A program made the position numbers and the translations under genes. This document shows positions 1 through 60,073 of a stretch of 64,000 nucleotides of DNA, in pieces. Position 1 is the first letter of the stretch. Each line of letters starts with the position of its first letter. This DNA is from Heptranchias perlo. Its lineage: Eukaryota. Where the stretch lies: assembly GCF_035084215.1 (NCBI RefSeq), contig NC_090340.1, positions 2,728,001 through 2,792,000 of the forward strand. The letters are read 5' to 3'. The notes under the pieces are model-generated. The model ran no database searches. It worked only from the letters and a program-made list of their open reading frames with translations, and was not told the DNA's origin.

Positions 1-727
1 CATGGATTCTTATTTGAAAATTATTCTCATAAACGCTGAAAGAACAGAGATATTTTAATCAATCTTTGCTCTTTTATCTTCTTCTTCGCGAAAGTATAGA
101 TTCTTTTCTCTCAGATCTAATTTTTATCCTGGCTTCTTCTTGATGATATGATTGTGACTGAAAGTGAATTTTGTACAGTAACTAATAGATGTTGCTAAAA
201 TTACAGTTTGCAGCAGATTGTGAGCACGGTTTGTGGAATGCAGGAGACGGCGGTTGTGCTCCAAACAGTAAGGCACGAGTTACTGCCCGTTACTGCTCCA
301 AGGGCCACTTCCACACCTGAGCCGTGACTCCAGGAGGTACGGTGCAATGGGGCAGGAGACCCCGAACAGCAATCGCAGAGTTCTTGGAACCTGATTAAAA
401 GTGAATAATTGTAGCCAGTAGTCTTACACTTTGACGGATTTAAAACCCGGTGAAAGAACCGGAGTAGAACAACTGATGAGAAAGTACAATTTGCCCAACC
501 CGAAGAGAGTCGTAGCAAAGGGTTCTATCGCGCGATAACTGAGATCTGCTATCTTATCTTTAGGGTAGGTGATGATGTAAATGACCGAGGCTTTGGAGCA
601 GAACACCTGGCATAAATCCACGGTTAATGGTATTTGAGTTAAACACATGGTGGGGTCAGGGCCAGGGTGGGGGAGCGATCACAGTAATCGGTTCTATTTG
701 CAGGATAACTGAGATCTGCTATCTTAC

Positions 728-1033
728 CTATGGGATAGGTGACAATGTGAGTGGCCGTGGCTGGAATTTGGAATGTAACGTGAGACACCAGGCAGGTATA
801 AACAGTCCCGGTTGGAACAGGCGTATCATCCAAACGGCTGGAAGCTTCATATAGTCCATCGGTGATGAGTTGTATAACGTTACTTATCTCTGTTGTAGTT
901 TTGGTGCCATCTTTATACCAAGTGAAGGTGATATTCTCCGGGTAAAACGGAGATGTCGCGCACACAACTGTAAGAGACGCAGATGAATCCTTTTCATGTT
1001 CTTGAGAGGTAATTTTCAGCGGAGTTGGCGGAA
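728..1033 (-). CDS. Gene A exon 3: Ig C1-set domain
   Basis: Acceptor CTTTTCTAG|, donor AG|GTAAGAT; 306 nt; [31 protein letters not shown] is the C1 signature. Confidence 0.93.
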
Positions 1034-1957
1034 CTAGAAAAGTTGAGGAAAGCAACGTTACTCGGGCATCAGTCAAGGTCATCAACAGTCGCTTTGTTTC
1101 GTCCTAATCCGGACAGCACGATGAGGGGAGCTATTCACTCTGCGCTATCGGTAGCGACATCGTAAACGGCATTTTCGTAAACGTGCACTTTATTTCGGAG
1201 TAATTTTAACTTTTATCCCCGGGCGATAAACGGGTGACGGCTGATGGGAAAGAAAATCACCAGGGTGTAAATCGGACGGCCGATTCACTATCGCCTGTTT
1301 TGCGGTACCGCTGCCGATCAATTCCACCCCTTTAAGTATAGCAACTGATGATAAAGTACAATTTTCCCAAACGCGAGGGACTTTGACACAAAGTTTCTGG
1401 ATAATATCTTATTTACTGGAGACTAAAAAGATGATGAAAATATGGGGTACGTGGCTCAAGTTACTGAGTGTGGACTTTAACTGTTAGTCACACCCGGCTT
1501 TCAACGCTCTTAACATATAGACCATTAAATTACAAATGGGTGAATCTGAATTCCAATTGAAACAGTCAGCCCTCCGAACCAGTGCACACAAAATCAACCA
1601 TCAAACAGGATCACATTTTGCTTACGGTGGCAGAAAGCGTTCGTATCCAATACAATAAAACAAACACAAGTCTTTAACGGATATTGTAATTTTAACTTCA
1701 CATACTTTTTGCATACACGCTGACTGTGTATTTTTGGGGTAAAATTACTAAAAGACAATGCTCTTGTTGATTAATATTGCTGAAATATTGTAATACCCAT
1801 TAGCATGTAACGTGTATCAGCCTACAATGCAATTTGAATTTATTCGTATAAAACGATTGGAATTTAAGTTATAATGTGAATCCTTCAAAGCACACCCGAG
1901 AAATGATTCGAATATTACAGTCACAGAGATCGCATTCGTCGCTATTTTCATACTTAC

Positions 1958-2278
1958 CCCATACTGTTAAATGTGATCCCGTTCCGTTTCCAGCTATTCT
2001 CCCTTGATGGGCGACAGTGCAATAATACAATCCCGAGTCCTTTACAGTCACATTGATTAACCGTAGGAAGCCGCTGAATTTAGTTTTGAAGCCAGCTACT
2101 TTTCTGTCATCAGGTCCTGTGCTGAGATATTTATTATCACCCTGTTTCCACCAATGTACGTTCACACGTGGGCCGTCTTGAAAGAAGGGAATCGAGCAAT
2201 GAAAGGAGACGCTTGTACCCAAGATTGCGCTCGCGTTTCCCGGGAGTTGAGTCACTTTGACCGAAGTATCGCCGGAGT
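1958..2278 (-). CDS. Gene A exon 2: Ig V domain, germline VJ-joined type
   Basis: Acceptor TTTTCCGATAG|, donor G|GTAAGTA; 321 nt, phase 1-1; VTQ..FHC..HWWK..DSGLYYC..GNGTGSHLTV (B-Cys, C-Trp, DxGxYYC, J-like GxG). Confidence 0.93.
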
Positions 2279-2450
2279 CTATCGGAAAAGAAAATTAAAA
2301 ATGAATTAGTGAGATTGTATTACAGGAGAAAAAGCGGGAGGTTAAGGGAGTCAGGCAAAGCGTCCAAACGACAGTGATACATTTTATGTGAAAGTAAAGT
2401 ATTTACTTGCGCGTTTTAGCTATAACGCGGGTTGTAGAAGAAACAGGTAC

Positions 2451-2505
2451 CTATGGAAATGATTCCCAGAACAGAGATGCAATGAAGTACAACGCTCCCC
2501 AACAT
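2451..2505 (-). CDS. Gene A exon 1: signal peptide (MLGSVVLHCISVLGIISI)
   Basis: ATG plus 18 hydrophobic codons, then phase-1 donor ATAG|GTACC; joins the V exon in frame (I-D-SGDTSVKVTQ); conserved in the duplicate at 60019-60073. Confidence 0.8.
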
Positions 2506-40481: not shown

Positions 40482-40639
40482 TTACTTGGCTTTCCGTTCC
40501 GCGTAATTAACGTCGGATCTTTGCTTTTTCATCCGTAGCTGAGCGTACTCCGTGCTCTTTTCATTATATTTAGGCTTTGCTGTCTTCTTGGAGCCAGTCA
40601 AGCATAGGTCAGCTTGTTCTCGGGTGTCCTTTGCTTGGT
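40482..40639 (-). pseudogene. Frameshifted terminal cytoplasmic exon (TKQRTPENKLTYA* / LTGSKKTAKPKYNEKSTEYAQL...)
   Basis: Acceptor CCTTGATTTCACAG|; internal similarity to the preceding exon; TGA at 40598-40600, with TEYAQL in the shifted frame. Confidence 0.65.
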
Positions 40640-40840
40640 CTGTGAAATCAAGGGTTGGGCATCTCATTAGTTCGATAATTTACCTGTATGTAGGTTAGTG
40701 TTAATCATTAGAATAGCCGGAATCTCGCAGAATCAGCGTTAAATAGAACAGATTACCAAAGATCTATTAAGGCTATTCCTTGCTCTATCCAGCATGTCCG
40801 CAGGTAATCTGTGTCTCTTTGTACTGCTCCTCAGACCGAC

Positions 40841-40939
40841 CTGGGCATACACTGTCCTCTCTTGATGCTTTGGTCTTAGAGCTTTCCGCGAATTGGTTAT
40901 GTCTAGTGCAGCATAAGGCGCCATCACATCGTCCGATAT
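40841..40939 (-). pseudogene. Cytoplasmic tyrosine-motif exon (ISDDVMAPYAALDITNSRKALRPKHQERTVYAQ), probably of gene C
   Basis: Acceptor TTCATTCCATGCAG|, donor CAG|GTCGGT; 99 nt, phase 0-0; YAAL and TVYAQ motifs. Confidence 0.7.
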
Positions 40940-41717
40940 CTGCATGGAATGAAAGGCAAAAATATATCTTGTTATGTTATAGGTCAGATGCCGCTTTTAG
41001 GAGCTCCCTTTGCAGAACAATGCGAGCGGACACGAAAATCACGGGTCCAGAGTCCATGCATTAAATGAATGGAGGGAAATTCAGTCCCAGCCACACTCAA
41101 CTTCCCGGCTGGCGCTCCACGCCAGCGACGTCAGTGCCCAACAGGCGGAACCAGTCCTAATAACACAAATAGTCAAACAGCCTTGGAGAGGGTGAAGGGA
41201 GGTTTTCGTCTTTACCGTCTGGACTTTACGCATCGACAGGACTAAGCGTAGAAAAGAAAATGTAGCGGAGCCGATGCTGGCAAGGGAACCCGAAACATTT
41301 CCCTACCATTGAAATTAATGCAAAAAAATCTATCTCACCAGATTTCCCTTCCTGCGCTACGCCCAAGCGATGCTTAGGCAGGAAAAACGAAGATTTACCC
41401 CCAAAATTCCGCGGAATTACCGCTTGTCTCCCGCCCTCATTTTGCTGGGTGAACACCAGGGGCTCGAATTTAGCAGGCCTGCGGGTTCCCAGCGGGTGGT
41501 CCTCCGGGAGCGTCGAAAACGCGAACGGCGAAATTAGTGGGTTGCCCACGCGATCGCGGGATAATTGGACCCATTAAGCCCTGCTTCCGGGTTCTGCGCT
41601 CCCCAGCTGCGAGCCGGCCGGCTGCGCATGCGCAGTACCGTCGACGCGATGTAGGAGCTCCAGTTAAAGGGGCAGTCTCCCAAAGCCCCTCCTGCTGCAA
41701 GCAAGAGGTCTGGGAGA

Positions 41718-43489
41718 ATGGCTCAACAAAGGGGAAAGGCTGCGCCCCGTTTTTCAGATCTGGCACTGCAGCTGATGCTGGAGGGCGTGAGGAGGAGGAG
41801 GGAAACACTCTTCCCAGAAGATGGGCGCAAGTTCCCTGCCGCCGCAACCAGGAAGGCATGGGCAGAGGTGGCGGCGGAGGTGAGCAGCAGGGGCAACACC
41901 CCAAGGACTTGGGAGCAGTGCCGCAAGCGCTTCAATGACCTGACTAGGTCTGGCAAGGTGAGTACACCAACGCACCCTCCCACATCCCGTCCCCACCATC
42001 ACGCCAAGCAGATCACAACCCCCTCCTGCACAGCAACCACTGCGCTCCATCAGCAATCCTCACAGCCACTCATTCACCATCCTCGCCGTGCACGCAAGTA
42101 CCCACCGTCCCTGACCCCACCCGAACACTACCACACACCCCAATCCCCATGCAATGGGATGGCCATGTGGCCCACGCTTCCCCCCATCAGTTCCGCGCCA
42201 CGCTCAACCCAACCACACCGATGCTCGATGCGTCTCACGATGCAAGACGCACCCACTCACACATCTGTGTTTTGCCTTCACAGGAGAAGAGAAGCAAGAA
42301 AAATAGGGAAAGGGCACGCACCGGAGGTGGGCCGCCGCAAGTGGTGGAGCTGACCGACGCAGAGGTGGAGGCGCTCGACCTCGCCCGCACGCAACATTGC
42401 CTGTCGGTGGCCGATGGCGAGTGTGTCGCTGCCGAAACGGCCGGTCACCTGCCATCAGGCGCACTGTCAAGTTGGTCCACATGCTTCAAAGTGCCCTCTG
42501 TTCTCTTGCAGGTCCGTCTTTGGGTCAAGCGAGCGTGGAGGGCGATTCCTCAGAGGACATGGCGGTCTCTGAGGGTGCATTGTCACATCAGAGCCAACCA
42601 TCCACCAGCGCAGAGACACGCACCTCGGTGGGTCCCCCTCGCCATCTAGTTGGGGTAGCACTTGGTGAGTCACTGCGCACGAGTGAGCATGAGCAGACCC
42701 TGGTGGCAGGGGCAGCCGCGGAGGGTCCGCGATGGAGGGAGCACTCATCTCCAGGCTCTGCTCAGCCGGACCCAGATGCTGAACCCAGGGGGCCACCAGT
42801 GAAAAGGAGAGTCGTCGAGGGCCACCAGCTAATTGCTGAGGTACTGGCAGAGGTGCCGCGCGCATTGTCCACAATAGCGCAGGCGATGGAGGAGTCCACC
42901 TCCTGCATGTGGGCATTGGTGGCGCAGGCACAGGAGGGTACCGGCGACACAGTGTCGCGGGTAGGTGCGGGACTGTCTGCGGTGGAGGACAGGCTGGCCT
43001 CCCTCGAGCGTCACGCACAGCTCCACTTCGAGTCCTTGCAGGCCCTGACAACGTCTGTACGGATTCAGGGTGAGCAACATTCCGACGCCACCAACAGGCT
43101 GAGGGATACACTAGGGGTGGCCTTGCAAGGCCTCACACATGCCATGCAAACTGCCGTCCAGCAGGGTGGAAGGGGTGATGTGGGCCGAGGCCAAGAGAGG
43201 GATGATGGTGACCGGGGACATGGAAGCCCCCACGTCCCACCCGTCGCCCACCTCTCAACCAGTACCCGCAATGGTGCCTCCTCTCCAGGTGGCCGAGTCT
43301 GCCCCTGCCCCGGTGCAGGAGGAGCAGTCTGTGGAGGTGCCCTCACGGGCACCGAAACCCAGGGGCCGTCCGCCAAAAGCATCTACCCGGTCAAGGCAAG
43401 AAGACGAGCAACCTGCCACTACCTCTGCTGGAGCCACAGGGGTAGCACCACGTAGGGGTTCCCGGAGAAGAATTGCAAAGGCCTTATAA
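41718..43489 (+). CDS. Harbinger Myb/SANT-like DNA-binding protein (exons ~41718-41957, 42284-42443, 42512-43489; probable frameshift near 43225)
   Basis: APRFS..AWAEVA..RTWEQCRKRFNDL trihelix; donor AAG|GTGAGT; exon 2 EKRSKKNRERARTGGGPP; basic C-terminus PRRGSRRRIAKAL in a different frame. Confidence 0.82.
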
Positions 43490-43714
43490 TCACAAAGGGA
43501 ATACACCAGGGTGTTTATTATTTTGTACTTTGTTTCTTAAATGATGTCACATTCCAGATATTAAATAGTCTCTTCTCACCACTCCTGCCACCTCTCGTCC
43601 ATTCTTCCGCGGCTTGTGCAATAGTTGCGTTCCGTGGAGGCCATCATGACGGCGAACACCTGCTGCCACCCATTGGGCACACTGCTGTGGGTGCAGGATT
43701 ACTGGCAGCACTCT

Positions 43715-45043
43715 TCAGTGGAGGGGGCTGGTATGGCCGCTCGCATGTGCAGGTGAGGAGATGCGAGCGCCTCGCAGTGTCTGACTCTCGGAGAACCGTT
43801 GACGTATGAGTGCGTCCCTGGCCTGGCGACCATCCCGGTGAGTCGCGGCTCGGCGCATGGGTCGTCCAACATCCTCTGGCGCGTCCTCCTCCACCGCCTC
43901 CTCCTCCTCCGCCTCCTCCTCCTCCTCCTCCTCCTCGCCCTCGCCTTCCTCAATGTGGGTGGCGGGTGAGGATGGGGCCTCCTCCAGCGGCACCCCTCTC
44001 TGTTGGGCCATGTTGTGCAGGGCACAGCAGACAACTATGATTCGTCCCACTCTGAATGGTGTGTATTGGAGCGCTCCCCCAGAACGATCAAGGCACCTGA
44101 AGCGCATCTTGAGAAGCCCTATGGTCTGCTCAATTGTAGACCTGGTAGCAGTGTGGCTGTCATTGTACCGACGCTCCGGCTCGGTGATGGGGTTCCTCAG
44201 AGGTGTCATGAGCCACGTGTGGAGGGGATACCCCTTGTCGCCGAGGAGCCAGCCGTTGCCGGCGTTGGGTGCCTGCAGGATGGGCGGGACGGCGGACTCC
44301 CTGAGGATGAAGGCATCGTGGCAGCTGCCGGGGTATCTGGCGCACACGTGTAGGAATCTCTGGCGGTGGTCACAGATGAGCTGGGCGTTCATGGAGTGAT
44401 ACCCCTTCCTGTTGATGAACAGCCCTGGCTCATGCGGAGGTGCCCGTATTGCGATGTGGGTGCAGTCGATTACACCCTGCACCCGTGGGAAGCCGGCCAT
44501 GGCATGGAATCCAACCGCCCTCTCCATCTGGCTGCGCTCGTCCATGGCGAAGTTGATGTAGTGGGAGGCCCTGCGGAACAACCCATCGGTGACCTGCCTT
44601 ATGCACTTGTGTGCAGAGGACTGACAGACCCCGGTGATGTCCCCGGTGGCACCCTGGAAGGAACCGGATGCGAAGAAGTTGAGGGCAGTGGTGACTTTGA
44701 CGGCGACAGGTAAGAAGATGCTGCTTGGTCCATCACGGAGCAGCTCGTCGTTAAGGAGGCTGCAGATGTCGGCGACTACCTGGCGATTGACTCTGAGCCT
44801 CCGTATGCACTGCTCCTCGGAGAGGTCCATGAAGCTGAGCCTCGCTCTGTACACCCTGTGCGGAGGGTAGTGCCTCCTGCGACGCATCTCTCTCTGCGGT
44901 TGCCCTCCCTCCTGCTGTGCAGGTGGGTGTGCCGCAGCACCGTGTTGGGGGGCCCCACCTCTCCGAGGCGGACGGCGTGGACTGCGAGGCTGCTGGGGCT
45001 GGTCATCCTGTTCGTCCTCCAACGATGTCAACGCACCACCCAT
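43715..45043 (-). CDS. Harbinger DDE transposase (HARBI1-family nuclease)
   Basis: Open frame from MGGAL; motifs GVIDCTH, NRKGYHSMN, GSCHD, LLGDKGYP, TIEQTIGLLKMRF; acidic poly-E C-terminal tract. Confidence 0.92.
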   Translation of the reverse strand: MGGALTSLEDEQDDQPQQPRSPRRPPRRGGAPQHGAAAHPPAQQEGGQPQREMRRRRHYPPHRVYRARLSFMDLSEEQCIRRLRVNRQVVADICSLLNDELLRDGPSSIFLPVAVKVTTALNFFASGSFQGATGDITGVCQSSAHKCIRQVTDGLFRRASHYINFAMDERSQMERAVGFHAMAGFPRVQGVIDCTHIAIRAPPHEPGLFINRKGYHSMNAQLICDHRQRFLHVCARYPGSCHDAFILRESAVPPILQAPNAGNGWLLGDKGYPLHTWLMTPLRNPITEPERRYNDSHTATRSTIEQTIGLLKMRFRCLDRSGGALQYTPFRVGRIIVVCCALHNMAQQRGVPLEEAPSSPATHIEEGEGEEEEEEEEAEEEEAVEEDAPEDVGRPMRRAATHRDGRQARDALIRQRFSESQTLRGARISSPAHASGHTSPLH

Positions 45044-46244
45044 CTGGCAGGTGTTGGTGTGAGGGGTTGTGCAGGTTAGGTGGGTGGGTCCTCGGACTGG
45101 GGATGCGGTTTCGTGTCGGTCTGTCCTCTGGCTTGGCGGGGGTTGGTGGAGGGCAGGGGTTGCCCTATGTGACGCGGTGGCCTCCTGCGTGGGTGAGGGC
45201 TCTCCCCCGTGGAGCGCACCTTGGCACCTGCCACAGGCTGCTGGCTGCAACACGTCTGGTTTGAAAGGTACTGTTTCCCCCAGTGTGGGAGACTGACTGC
45301 GTTGAACCTAAAATCCCACACTTCCTCTTTTGACAGCTGCTTCAGCTCATTAACTGACCACAACGAGCAAGTTAAGTGCTCTCAAGTGGAACCCCGCTGG
45401 CTTTAATTGCCTGCGGGATTCCCACCAGCGGGGCTTGCGCGCGCAGGCCCGCACGTCAGCGCGGTACCCGGAAGTGGCCGGGATTTCGTCCGAATCCGGT
45501 CACGTGACCGGAGATCGGGATTTTCGGGCCCCCCCCCCCCCCCCCGCTGGAAACCCGCAGGTAACCCGACCGTAAAATCGAGCCCCAGAAGTCCAGGAGA
45601 AAGCGTGTAATAAGCTGAAAATTTTAATTCCGTTCTCTGGCAGTTCCATGGATATCCCGCCGAAGTGACGGAAATTTCTACGTTATAAAAATAAACAAAA
45701 ATAAGGGATCAAAGTTCATTCCTATAGCCATTTGATATGAATAGTCTGGTTGAAATTTCGTTGCAGCAAAAACTAGCAAAACTATTTAGATCGTTCATGA
45801 AATTGAGCTTTATACTGCAGTGGAAAATGTGTTTAATTATTATACAAAGAATATTATTTAATTAGCACAGGGGGACTTAAATAGGGCTTCAGGGCAATTT
45901 TCAGTAGTCAGGTCACTTTCAATATCTAAACAAATAAACAGCGAACATAATTCTGGAATCAATAATCAGAACATGGAATTCAGGAGGTTACATTAAAGCT
46001 TCAAAGTGAACTTCTGGACTACACTTAGAATCCTACTTTCGGATTTCAATTCATCCACAATGCCACATGCCTACATGTATGTCTATATTTACTATATTTA
46101 TATCTATTGATATATATATCTATTTATATATGTATATTTATGTATTTTTCTCTCTATATCTACAATAATACTTCTCTTTCTCTGTAAGGTCGACCCCGAT
46201 CACTCAAAGACGGAGATGAAGTAGGACCAGGGAATCAAATGAAG

Positions 46245-54110: not shown

Positions 54111-56011
54111 ATGCACCCACATGCAGCAGACTATATTGGAAAACTAGTTATTGCACATCACATTTCGTTCCATTGATTTCAATCGATGGGAAATGGCAGA
54201 CAAATAATCCACAATTTTCCGATAAGCTTCTCCGTTCTTGCTCGGTTTCCCGGCCTGTGAGGCCAAGCAGCAAATTCTGCCTATGGCGTGGGAGGCAAAG
54301 GCGTTGGGGTTGTTTCAAATTCAGTTCGATGCCATGATGGGAGAATGCGGCGACTGAACGGAATGCTGATTTCTCGCAACTTGTTTCCTCGTGTTCTTAA
54401 CACTGCAGCAAATTTACCCACTGCACAATAAAAAAAAAATCGTGTCTGTGTTCTGGGCGCACGCGGGAAGCACAAATCGCTAAACTAACACTGTCAGTCC
54501 TTGGCTTGCTGCCGTTTTCGTCAAGTCGTTCTCGATATGCAGGCATCGCTGCCAAGTCTGGCATTTATTGCCTTTCCCTGGTTTCCATGAGAAGGTGGTG
54601 GTGGGCTTGCTTCTGAGGGCAGTTAGAGTCAACTACACTGGTGTGGGACTGGAGTCATATATTGGTCAGGCCAGGTGAGGACGGAAGGTTTCGTTCCCTA
54701 AAGGACATTAGTGGACTAGTTCTGAACAATACAATTATGATGATGATGAAATTAGCCAGTATTACAGCATTAATCAATTTTCAGCCTCAACCAGTCCAAC
54801 AAAATGCTTGAGTTAGGAATCCTTAAAGTTGCATGACCCCACAACGTTCTGAAAATTAACAGCGCTCATCAAAATAGTAAGCTCTTGTAAAAGGGACTTT
54901 TAATTCATCTAACGTGTGCAATTGAAACAAAGTTTACACATTTAAAGCAAGGGATTTAAGACAATCCAACAGGTTCATGCTCACTCTTACTAATACCATC
55001 TTTTATATACAGATTTATGAAAACTGAATTCAAAATCTCAAACTGCCACGGTAGGATTTAAATTCGCATTTTTCGGGTTTCGATGGACACAAAATCATGG
55101 ACTGCGTTTGTACGATTGCGCAACATGCTGTCCGCTGTGTTCAGGATGCAACAGCAGATTTTTTTTCCATTCACTACAGCTGATGATAACCTTTGAGCAA
55201 TATATTGTTTTACAATCTACAGGTGACAGCTCAAAGTCGGCTGCCTTTGACTTATTGACAAAGATATGAACAAATCTAATGTTTCGAATTGTGTTTGTTG
55301 CATAATTACTGGTATCACTCTGCACTATTTTTGTATGAATCTTTACAGCGAAAGAATAACGCGGGCAAAAACATTTCAATGCTAGTTTTACGTTCGGACA
55401 CTTATCTATATATTTACATTAGAAATATATTAGGATGGATTCTGGAAACATACCGGCTGTTCGCGATGGTCTGATCTTTCGCCAACATTCTGCGCTCCTG
55501 GTAATGAATGAAGTTCAAGACTTTAAAATGAAGCGTTACATTAGCTTTAAAGACACTTGATATCACATTTTAAGGAATTGCTTGGATGCTGACCTATGTT
55601 TGACAACAGGGACGGCATTTATCAGGTACCTGCGATGCCTTGCAGCAGCGGCAGGATGATTGGAAAATTGCGGGGTAACTGCCCACAATTCTATGTCCAT
55701 TGTCCTGAATGGACGGAAAATCCCAGGCGATGAAATGTGATGTTCCAATGAGTGCTAGTCTCAGCCGATGGCTTGGGGCGGGGGTGGGCTCTTAGGAAAT
55801 TCCGCTCCACTTTGCATAGCGTCTTAGAAATCGAAATGTACCTCTACACCAGTAGTAAAGCAAATCATATTCGAAGCGTTAATTATTTCAATTTGTATAA
55901 ATGAAAAATGCTGTGGTGAATGTGAAGGGTCCCTTATAGTTTTCAACCTAAGGTAAATCGATAATCACCAATCATTCCAGTTTCTCCAAGAGCACTTTGA
56001 CCTTTCACTTA

Positions 56012-57100
56012 CAATCATGGGAATCAGGGGGAAAACTCTCCAGTGGCTGCAGTCATACCCAGCAAAAAGAAAGATGGCAGTGGTTGTTGGAGGCCAATTG
56101 TCTCAGCCACAAGACATTGCTGCAGGAGCTCCTCAGGGCAGTGTCCGAGGCCCAATCGTCCTCAGCTGCTTCATCAATACCTTCCCTCCATCATAAGGTC
56201 AGAAATGGGGATGTTCGCTGATGATTGCACAGTGTTCAGTTGCATTCGCAACCCCTCAGATAATGAAGCAGTCCGTGCCCGCATGCAGCAAGACCTGGAC
56301 AACATCCAGGCTTGGGCTGATAAGTGGCAAGTAACATTCGCGCCAGACAAGGGCCAGGCAATGACTAACTCCAACAAGAGAGAGTCTAACTACCTCCACT
56401 TGACATTCAACGGCATGACCCTCACCGAATCCATCACCATTAACATTCTGGGGGTCGACCAGAGAATTAACTTGTCCAGCCACACAAATGCTGTAGCTAC
56501 AAGAGCAGGTCGGAGGCTGGATATTCTGCGGCGATTAACTCACCTCCTTACTGCCCAAAGCTTTTCCACCATCTCAAGGCACAAGTCAGGAGTGTGATGG
56601 AATACTCTCCACTTGCCTGGATGAGTGCAGCTCCAACAACATTCAAGAAGCTCGACACCATCCAGGACAAAGCAGCCTACTTGATTGGCAGCCCGTCTAC
56701 CACCCTAAACATTCACTCCCTTCACCACCGATGCACCGTAGCTGCAGTGTGTACCATCTGTAGGATGCACTGCAGCAACTCGCCAAGGCTTTTTCGACAG
56801 CACCTCCCAAACCCATGACCTCTACCACCTAGAAGGACAAGGGCAGCAGGCACATGGGAACAACACCACCTGCACGTTCCCCTCCAAGTCACACACCATC
56901 ACGACTTGGAAATATATCGCCGTTCCTTCATCGTCAGGGTCAAAATCCTGGAACTCCCTTCCTAACAGCACTGTGGGAGAACCTTCACCAGCGGTTCAAG
57001 AAAGCAACTCACCACCACCTTCTCAAGGGCAATTAGGGATGGGCAATAAATACCGGCCTTGTCACCGACGCCCACATCCCAAAAAGGAATAAGAAAAAAA
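56012..57100 (+). mobile_element. Second LINE family 3' fragment
   Basis: MFADD, MEYSPLAWM; same 3' tail. Confidence 0.9.
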
Positions 57101-58273
57101 TCTTCCTACCTGTCGCTGTCAAAGTCATCACTGCCCTCCCGAACTTCTGCTCCACAGCCTTCCAGGCTGCAACCAGGGACATCCCCGATGTCTCTCAGTC
57201 GTCTGCGCAGAAGAGCCCTGCAAATACACCGACACCCACTCTGCAGTGACACACTGGGTGGAATCAGTGGTGGGTCCTCATAGGGATACCCAGGAGCGGG
57301 CATTATTCCACAAACCGGACAGGATTCGCGAAGACATGGCAGTATTGGTGCCAATATAATGTGTGATGTGAGTTGTTCTTTAAGTCAATAGATGTAAGAA
57401 CCATGACAAACCCTCGAACACCCTTGTGCATCCCCTTCATGCTCACGACACGTTTGTCTTACGCTGCCGACTGCACATATGTGATGCATGCCCTGTGGCT
57501 GCAGCACAGGTGGTGGCAGGTTGAGTGAGGCTCGCCATGAGAGAGATGCACGAGAGGGTGAGTATGGGATAGAGCCATGAGATTGTATGAGGATTGGGTT
57601 GCGTGGTCGTGGCGGGGTGAGTACTCGCGAGGTGAGTAGGTGCAGGTAAGATGAGGATGAGGTTTGAGTGGGTATGAGGGGTGATGTGACAGAGTAGTGT
57701 TGGCAGTGCTGAAGGAGATGTGGGATGGGGGCAGTGTTGTGGCAGACGGAGTGTAGGGGAATGAGTAAGTGTTCTCATTGTGGCTGACCTCCTGAGGTCA
57801 TTGGAGCGCCTCCTGCACTCTGTGCAGGTGGGCGATATGTTGGTGGTGCTGGTGACCTCCTCTGCCACCTCGAGCCAGGCCTTCTTGGTGGCAGAGGCAG
57901 GCCGCTTCCTCCCGCCCGTCGGGTGGAAGATCTCTGTCCTCCCCCTCCTCCTCACCACATCTAATGGTACCTGGGGTGAGGCATCATTAAACTGGGAACA
58001 GCCTTCCCCCTGGGCTGCTCCATGCTGTAATTTTTGCTGTTTTTGGCAGCATCTGTCAGTGGAGGACTGCCTCTTGAAAAAGAGCGCCTCCAGCTGACAG
58101 ATCTTACTGCGCATGCGCAGCCCGCCCGACGCGCAGTTCAGCATCGGGGAACCCGGAGGAGCAGGTAAGTGGTTCCAATTCCTGTGTTGCCTGCTACGAT
58201 CGCGCGGGAAACCCTATAAACGCGCCCGCTGGCCCACCCGCCCAGCACCCGCACCCCTGGTAAAATCGGGCCC
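57100..58273 (-). mobile_element. Truncated Harbinger (one TIR and Myb exon)
   Basis: TIR TAAAATCGGGCCC ending at 58273; ATKKAWLEVAEEVTS..CRRRSNDLRRS. Confidence 0.85.
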
Positions 58274-58313
58274 ACGGTTCTATTTGCAGGATAACTGAGA
58301 TCTGCTATCTTAC

Positions 58314-60073
58314 CTATAGGGGAGGTGACAATGTAAGTGGCCGTGGCTGGAATTTGGAATACACCGTGAGACACCAGGCAGGTATAAACAGTCCCGGTTC
58401 GAACTGGCGGCGAATCATCCAAACGGCTCGAAGCTTCATATAGTCCATCGGTGTTGAGTTGTATAACGTTACTTATCTCTGTTTTAGTTTTGGTCCCATC
58501 TTTATACCAAGTAAAGATGATATTCTCCGGGTAAAACGGAGATGTCGTGCACAAAATAGTCAGAGACGCAGATGAATCCTTTTCATGTTCCTGAGAGGTA
58601 ATTTTCAGTGGAGTTGGCGGAACTAGAAAAATTGAGGAAAGCAACGTTACTCGGGCATTAGTCAAGGTCATCAACAGTCGCTTTGTTTCGTCCTAATCCG
58701 GACAGCACGATGAGGGGAGCTATTCACTCTGCGCTGTCGGTAGCGACATCGTAAACGGCATCTTCGTAAATGTATTTATTTCGGAGTAATTTTAACTTTT
58801 ATCGCCGGGCGATAAACGGGTGACGGCTGATGGAAAGAAAATCGAGCGGGATGTAAATCGGGCGGCCGATTCACTATCGCCTGTTTTGCGGTACCGCTGC
58901 CGACCAATTCCACCCCTTTAAGTATAGCAACTGATGATAAAGTACAATTTTCCCAAACGCGAGGGACTTTGACACACAGTTTCTGGATAATATTTTATTT
59001 ACTGGCGGCTCAAAAGATAATGAAAATATGGGGTGCGTGGCACAAGTTACAGAGTGCGGACTTTAACTGCTGGTCACACCCGGCATATAGACCTGTAAAT
59101 TATAAATGTGCGAATCGGAATTCCAATAGAAACGGCCAGCCCTCCAGAACCTATACAGACAAAATAAACCATCAAACAGGACCAGATTTTGCTTAGTTTG
59201 GCAGATCCGCGTTAGTATCCAATGCTATCGAGATATACATATCCTTGACAGATACTGCAATTTTAACTTCACATGTTTATTGTATACACGCTATCGTTGT
59301 ATTTTTGAGTAAAATTACTAACAGATAATGTTCTTGTTGATTAATATTGCTGAAATATTATAATATCCATTAGCATGTAACGTGTAGCAGCCTACGATGC
59401 AATTTGACTTTATACATACAAAACGATTGGAATTTAAGTTGCAATGTGAATCCTTCAAAGCACAACCGAGAAATGATTCAAATATTACAGTCACAGAGAT
59501 CGCATTCGTCGTTATTTTCATACTTACCCCAGACAGTTAAGTGGGATCCCGTTCCGTTTCCAGCTATTCTCCCTTGATGGGCGAAGTGCAATTATACAAT
59601 CCCGAGTCCTTTACAGTCACATTGATTAGACGAAGGAAGCCGCTGAATTTAGTTTTGAAGCCAGTTACTTGTCTGTCATCAGGTCCTGTGCTGAGTTATT
59701 TATTATCACCCTGTTTCCACCAGTGTACGTTCACACGTGGGCCGTCTTGAAAGAAGGGAATCGAGCAATGAAAGTAGACGCTTGTACCTAAGATTGCGCT
59801 CGCGCTTCCAGGGAGTTGAGTCACTTTGACCGAAGTATCGCCGGAGCCTATCGGAAAAGAAAATCAAAAACGAATTAGTGAGATTGTGTTACAGGAGAAA
59901 AGCGCGAGGGTAAGGGAATCAGGCAAAGAGTCTAAGTGACAGTGGTACATTTTATGTGAAATTAAAGTATTTACTTGCGCGTTTTATCTATAACGCGGGT
60001 TATAGAAACCACAGGTACCTATGGAAATTATTCCCAGAATAGAGATGCACTGAAGTACAACGCTCGCCAACAT
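58314..60073 (-). pseudogene. Gene C: pseudogene paralog of gene A (leader 60019-60073, V 59528-59847, C1 58314-58622)
   Basis: Colinear high-identity copy of 689-2853; V exon has TAT->TAA at 59696-59698, YYC->YNC and a 1-bp deletion (320 vs 321 nt); C1 exon still open. Confidence 0.9.

What the first reader, a model, noticed from the sequence alone, without database searches (positions are those of the whole stretch)
40482..40939. Inhibitory-type tail built from a duplicated tyrosine module, with the distal half lost to a frameshift
Seen: exon 40841-40939 encodes PYAALDITNSRKALRPKHQERTVYAQ. The next exon reads KLTYA then TGA, but the shifted frame continues LTGSKKTAKPKYNEKSTEYAQL. The halves align (YAALDIT..K..RPK....TVYAQ vs YA---LT..K..KPK....TEYAQ), implying a 3n+1 deletion (~10 nt, ALD) that destroyed an LTYxxL ITIM and uncoupled the ITSM-like TEYAQL. 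Inference: the ancestral tail had four tyrosines in two repeats, as in SIRP-alpha. Retaining the intron would instead give TVYAQV, a canonical TxYxxV ITSM.
Basis: partly seen in the sequence, partly recalled or inferred. Interest (0 to 1): 0.7.

Follow-up and report, generated by a model that had tools for sequence, protein, structure and literature searches.

The report
Dead copy of shark inhibitory receptor
The 10-base deletion in this shark immune-receptor tail is real, but in the assembly the same gene copy also has an early stop codon, a second frameshift and no membrane-anchor exon, so it is likely an ordinary dead copy in a large, fast-turning-over gene family and the shortened tail is likely never made.

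Summary
Observation confirmed. The last exon (40639-40482, minus strand) is 158 nt against 168 nt in five of its six closest paralogs (162 nt in the sixth). They use the same acceptor and read LTYASL/I...T(E/K)YAQL in one frame. Short-read contigs of the one sample listed carry the deleted form unbroken. The two-module tail is old: it recurs in a chimaera and other sharks. But the tail belongs to a leader-VJ-C1 gene at 60.1-55.5 kb that has a stop at codon 69, a V-exon frameshift and no transmembrane exon. It is therefore most likely a multi-hit pseudogene, and the frameshift has no signalling effect. The V-exon lesions were not covered by the reads laid. The last exon is broken in 6 of 20 tail loci examined. 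The intron-retention ITSM follows from any GT donor and has no RNA support here. The family (over 90 V-exon matches on one chromosome) is SIRP-like but has one C1 domain, not two; this scan noted it before on other DNA of this genome. One paralog, L013, looks intact except for a truncated tail.

The parts
60019..60073 (-). Leader exon (55 nt), ATG and donor intact
59528..59847 (-). Germline-joined VJ exon, 320 nt instead of 321: TAA at 59698-59696 (codon 69), 1-nt deletion at about 59584, YYC motif changed to YNC
   Evidence: no own-copy short-read contig covered it
58314..58622 (-). C1-set exon (309 nt), open
56016..58274 (.). Repeat-derived block standing where paralogs have about 780 bp holding the transmembrane exon; no transmembrane exon between 58.3 and 40.9 kb
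55454..55497 (-). First cytoplasmic exon (44 nt), intact splice sites
41460..45585 (.). PIF/Harbinger-type transposon in the intron above the tail exons (Myb/SANT and DDE_Tnp_4 frames, short inverted ends, CAG on both sides); not at this place in the paralogs compared
40841..40939 (-). Second cytoplasmic exon, tyrosine module 1 (PYAAL ... TVYAQ), 99 nt, phase 0-0
40640..40840 (-). Last intron (201 nt, GT..AG), conserved in paralogs
40482..40639 (-). Last exon, tyrosine module 2; 10-nt deletion after 40601, premature TGA 40600-40598, TEYAQL out of frame

Best explanation
The tail exons belong to a shark leader-VJ-C1 receptor gene that in this assembly carries a stop at codon 69, a V-exon frameshift, no transmembrane exon and a 10-base deletion in its last exon, so it is likely a dead copy in which the tail deletion changes no protein. 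Shown: the lesions in the assembly, the deletion in short-read contigs, and open 369-aa paralogs (leader, VJ, C1, TM, three cytoplasmic exons, four tail tyrosines). Inferred: intact paralogs are inhibitory receptors that recruit SHP-1/2-type phosphatases through LTYxxL/I and TEYxxL; this copy lost function and kept collecting damage; the deletion likely arose by slippage between two similar 7-mers 10 nt apart (5 of 7 alike in L002); any transcript would likely be removed by nonsense-mediated decay. The order of the lesions is not known.
For: Collinearity ties the tail to the V-C1 exons at 58-60 kb: window segments 40.3-41.1, 48.9-51.5, 54.3-56.0 and 58.3-60.4 kb map in order onto the intact gene at L004. 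V stop and frameshift. TM exon found in 6 of 6 close paralogs and not in the window's 40.9-58.3 kb by blastn, tblastx, tblastn or a hydropathy scan. Broken copies are common: last exon open in 14 of 20 loci; L003 and L005 have a V stop plus a lesion in the exon before last; L009 has a C1 frameshift. L002, L004 and L007 splice to 369-aa open frames. A horn-shark model (P0005) and chimaera models (P0018, P0020, P0031) have the same tail in frame.
Against: Private changes on this copy (25 nonsynonymous, 13 synonymous, omega about 0.58, p=0.12 against neutral) and pairwise omega (0.46-0.54, against 0.44 between intact L004 and L002) do not show clear relaxation, so death may be recent. All its remaining splice sites are still canonical.
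Confidence: 0.87

Rival explanations
1. The deletion came first, in a then working gene, and made a stable receptor with a disarmed tail (stop in the last exon, so no decay) that acted as a decoy or weak inhibitor; the gene died later.
For: L013 has intact leader, V, C1, TM and first two cytoplasmic exons with canonical splice sites and a 1-nt-short last exon, giving a 326-aa frame that keeps VHYVAL only. L017 shares that lesion, with later damage at the ITIM tyrosine in L013, L017, L019, L020. One-module tails occur in relatives (P0007, P0010, P0034, P0038, P0042).
Against: No way to order the lesions from one genome; no RNA; of the 6 loci with a broken last exon, 4 (L001, L016, L019, L020) show upstream damage too and L017 is unclear.
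Confidence: 0.08
2. The locus makes a soluble or alternatively spliced product (V-C1 joined to cytoplasmic exons, retained last intron giving TVYAQV, or an AG 11 nt into the last exon that puts TEYAQL back in frame).
For: C1 and first cytoplasmic exon are phase-compatible; an AG at +11 restores the TEYAQL frame; database isoforms in relatives end in what looks like the retained intron (P0001, P0013, P0023).
Against: The stop at codon 69 precedes all of this; a tyrosine motif without a membrane anchor cannot signal as an ITIM/ITSM; the +11 AG has no pyrimidine tract.
Confidence: 0.03
3. The frameshift is an assembly error.
For: None found.
Against: Three short-read runs give a gap-free 372-nt contig across the site; contigs that hold the 10 nt also differ at 18 other places and are paralogs.
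Confidence: 0.02

Closest known systems
SIRP family (SIRP-alpha/SHPS-1, SIRP-beta)
   Same: V plus C1 ectodomain type, tyrosine-based inhibitory tail with four sites, sister genes with a basic TM residue and short tail (PMC12975943 sections 2-3; PMC3533184 passages). SIRP-alpha is the second-best solved-structure match of P0005 (E 3e-14); many database relatives are auto-named SIRP-alpha-like.
   Different: One C1 domain instead of two; over 90 V-exon matches instead of a handful; CD47 binding and synteny not shown; this copy is broken.
Non-rearranging VJ-C1 genes (UrIg, PRARP)
   Same: Joined VJ exon followed by a C1 exon; UrIg2 is the best solved-structure match of P0005 (E 2e-20); class named in PMC10751288 (passages).
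   Different: The UrIg2 chain is titled V-C1-C2-C3; this family has one C1, a TM exon and a tyrosine tail. The primary papers were not held, so a direct comparison was not made.
Pseudogenes in paired-receptor clusters (e.g. LILRP1/LILRP2)
   Same: Dead copies among activating and inhibitory paralogs in one cluster (PMC3533184 passage).
   Different: Different Ig-domain type and lineage.

Membership tests
SIRP family | Ectodomain of one V and two C1 domains | tested here: not met
   Intact paralogs splice V-C1-TM, 369 aa; P0005 is the same. Definition from PMC12975943 section 3.
SIRP family | SIRP-alpha-type tail with four tyrosine sites including an ITIM | tested here: met
   Met in intact paralogs (LTYASL/I, TEYAQL plus two proximal tyrosines); not met in the window copy, where module 2 is frameshifted.
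SIRP family | Activating sister with a basic TM residue and short tail | tested here: met
   Neighbour gene (V exon near 1.95-2.27 kb of the window, continuing into L039) has Arg in the TM and a short tail; its V exon is 96% identical to L004. Adaptor binding not tested.
SIRP family | Binding to CD47 | not testable with these tools
   A CD47 family search of the genome found nothing but its control did not ring either.
SIRP family | Synteny with the mammalian SIRP locus (neighbours NSFL1C and PDYN, recalled, from no call) | tested here: inconclusive
   SEP-domain genes found on C22 and C3, none on C18, but which is NSFL1C was not determined; opioid-precursor search uninformative.
Functional inhibitory paired receptor (this copy) | Open frame through V, C1 and a transmembrane segment | tested here: not met
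   Stop at codon 69, V frameshift, TM exon absent; assembly evidence only.
ITSM-bearing receptor by intron retention | Transcript that retains the last intron in a membrane-anchored frame | tested here: inconclusive
   Retention would read TVYAQV then 32 more residues, but no RNA contig covered the exons and the copy has no TM exon.
Non-rearranging VJ-C1 genes | V and J-like segment in one exon followed by a C1 exon | tested here: met
   One 321-nt exon ending in a GxG strand, then a C1-set exon. Recombination signal sequences were not searched.

The most novel reading that the evidence does not exclude
Sharks tune this receptor family by cutting, skipping or duplicating exon-sized tyrosine modules: loss of the distal module by a last-exon frameshift yields working half-tailed receptors (L013 is the live candidate), and the window's deletion records such a step before the gene died.
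Probability: 0.12. Interest if true: 0.5.

Novelty: new member of a known kind. Interest (0 to 1): 0.17.

Why it matters
For this copy, little: it is one more broken member of a cluster in birth-and-death turnover. It does confirm that the family's tail is made of exon-sized, phase-0 tyrosine modules that predate the shark-chimaera split and come in one, two or three copies. If L013-type half-tailed genes are expressed, module loss would be a simple route from strong to weak inhibition, testable by phosphatase pull-down.

Tried and rejected
Assembly error: rejected. Different acceptor in paralogs: rejected; 14 of 20 loci read an open last exon from the homologous acceptor. Tail belonging to another gene: rejected by collinearity. 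RNA: no RNA holder listed; run X5 did not cover the tail exons; X5-X7 did not cover the V exon and X7 held one paralog-type C1 piece at depth 2.8; none of this is evidence on expression. Read check of V lesions: hole in own-copy cover, proves nothing. dN/dS test of decay: inconclusive; the script missed the L006 C1 and L003 TM exons and some private changes match the horn-shark state, so they are not all derived. CD47 and PDYN searches uninformative. No structure or complex prediction was run: no bearing on a dead copy. Census limits: 20 of 43 matches were fetched; for L016, L017, L019, L020 upstream DNA was fetched only in part.

Full report
What is in the sequence. On the minus strand, 40939-40841 is a 99-nt exon with AG/GT flanks that encodes the first tyrosine module (PYAAL ... 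TVYAQ). After a 201-nt intron the last exon (40639-40482, 158 nt) reads ...KLTYA and stops at TGA 40600-40598; a shifted frame continues LTGSKK...TEYAQL to the stop that paralogs use.

The deletion is real. A search of the own genome with this exon gave 43 matches, all on contig C18; the best 20 were fetched. Their alignment shows the same acceptor and a 10-nt gap only in the window copy (1 of 20). Five of the six closest paralogs have a 168-nt exon and one 162 nt; they read LTYASL or LTYASI followed by T(E/K)YAQL in one frame. A horn-shark model (P0005) has the same junction region and frame. Short-read contigs of runs X1, X2 and X4 cross the site in one 372-nt piece with 0, 0 and 1 differences and no gap; contigs that hold the 10 nt differ at 18 further places and are paralogs. 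All runs are one sample. In L002 the missing stretch lies between two 7-mers alike at 5 places and 10 nt apart, which suggests slippage (inference).

The duplicated module is real and old. The window's two halves align with score 48, reached by 0 of 5000 shuffles; in five relatives 0-2 of 5000. Chimaera models P0018, P0020 and P0031 have both modules; P0007, P0010, P0034, P0038 and P0042 have only the distal one; P0014 repeats the proximal one and P0022 adds a further distal one. P0015, P0019, P0028 and P0029 match own-genome loci at or near 100% in their exons and are not counted as independent.

The gene that owns the tail is broken upstream. Window segments from 40.3 to 60.4 kb map in order onto the intact gene at L004. 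That places the leader at 60073-60019, a joined VJ exon at 59847-59528, a C1 exon at 58622-58314 and a first cytoplasmic exon at 55497-55454. The V exon has TAA at codon 69 where paralogs have TAT, a 1-nt deletion near 59584, and YNC for YYC. About 780 bp that hold the transmembrane exon in L004 are missing; repeats fill 56016-58274, and no TM exon was found between 58.3 and 40.9 kb by four methods, whereas 6 of 6 close paralogs have one. A 4.1-kb Harbinger-type element sits in the intron above the tail. L002, L004 and L007 splice to open 369-aa frames. Against this reading: the upstream lesions rest on the assembly. In run X4 only paralog-type contigs covered the V and C1 exons, with own-copy contigs on either side; such a hole proves nothing. 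The substitution pattern does not show clear relaxation: 25 nonsynonymous and 13 synonymous private changes in 325 codons, omega about 0.58, p=0.12 against neutral, and pairwise values like those between intact genes.

Broken copies are common here. The V exon gave 95 matches (94 on C18) and the C1 exon 136 matches, mainly in two blocks of C18 at about 2.7-6.0 and 14.5-15.6 Mb; these are lower bounds and not gene counts. Of 20 tail loci, 14 have an open last exon and 6 do not (L001, L013, L016, L017, L019, L020). L003 and L005 have a V stop and a lesion in the exon before last, L009 a C1 frameshift, L018 a lost donor.

Mechanism. Intact members are predicted inhibitory receptors: phosphorylated LTYxxL/I and TEYxxL would bind SH2 phosphatases, as described for SIRP-alpha (PMC12975943, sections 2 and 3 read; PMC3533184, passages). 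This is inferred, not tested. In the window copy translation stops at codon 69, so the tail frameshift is likely silent. The intron-retention idea is weak: GT after a phase-0 exon always gives Val (18 of 20 loci), the copy has no TM exon, and no RNA was seen. Database isoforms of relatives that seem to end in the retained intron (P0001, P0013, P0023) leave it open for intact genes.

Comparison with known families. Relatives are auto-named SIRP-alpha-like, Ig-light-chain-like or tapasin-related, and all 50 hits are from cartilaginous fishes. The best solved-structure matches are UrIg2 and SIRP-alpha. The family works like SIRP (predicted) but fails the V-C1-C1 test; CD47 binding and synteny are untested or inconclusive. 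Eight full-text searches listed no paper describing this shark family; I saw listings only, plus passages of PMC10751288 and PMC11599192. Two likely relevant papers on VJ-C1 genes were not held, so absence from print is not established. No supplements were read. This scan noted the family before on other DNA of this genome, and nothing near this locus.

Most novel reading left. L013 has intact leader, V, C1, TM and two cytoplasmic exons with canonical splice sites, but a last exon 1 nt short, giving a 326-aa frame that keeps one ITIM. Whether it is expressed, and whether the window's deletion came before the gene died, cannot be told from one genome.

Verdict: observation confirmed, interpretation partly supported; most likely ordinary pseudogene decay (0.87); interest 0.17.

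Noticed in passing
window about 1-2505 (minus), continuing into L039: Neighbour gene with V exon 96% identical to inhibitory L004 but a different TM exon carrying Arg and a short tail; the same TM and tail type occurs in horn-shark P0006. Looks like the activating partner, possibly formed by a swap just after the C1 exon.
   Followed up: partly
L013 region (L042-L043), G000:C18:14652588-14660460 plus: All exons and splice sites intact except a 1-nt-short last exon and a Tyr-to-Asp change in its ITIM; 326-aa frame with one ITIM. L017 shares the lesion.
   Followed up: partly
window 41460-45585: PIF/Harbinger-type transposon with Myb/SANT and DDE_Tnp_4 frames, short inverted ends and CAG on both sides.
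   Followed up: partly
window 25585-19664 (minus): A third family gene: leader, VJ, C1, uncharged TM and first cytoplasmic exon look open; no tyrosine-module exon was found below it in the window.
   Followed up: no
L039 1-140 and end of L058 (G000:C18 about 2717960-2718140, minus): An inhibitory-type TM exon with no V or C1 exon of its own, about 10 kb below the Arg-TM exon of the neighbour gene.
   Followed up: no
window gene 60073-40482: Mosaic similarity: V and C1 exons are 93-95% like the L004 group and 83-84% like the L002 group, while the last exon is closer to L002/L005 (0.91) than to L004 (0.87), hinting at recombination.
   Followed up: no
L018 about 1240 on the minus reading; L006 C1 exon (L028): L018 has TT instead of GT at the module-1 donor and its database model P0028 skips that exon; L006 has Trp for the second C1 cysteine.
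   Followed up: no
G000:C18 3.48-4.02 Mb and 4.27-4.85 Mb: Many V and C1 matches come in near-identical pairs about 0.8 Mb apart, suggesting a recent segmental duplication or an assembly duplicate.
   Followed up: no
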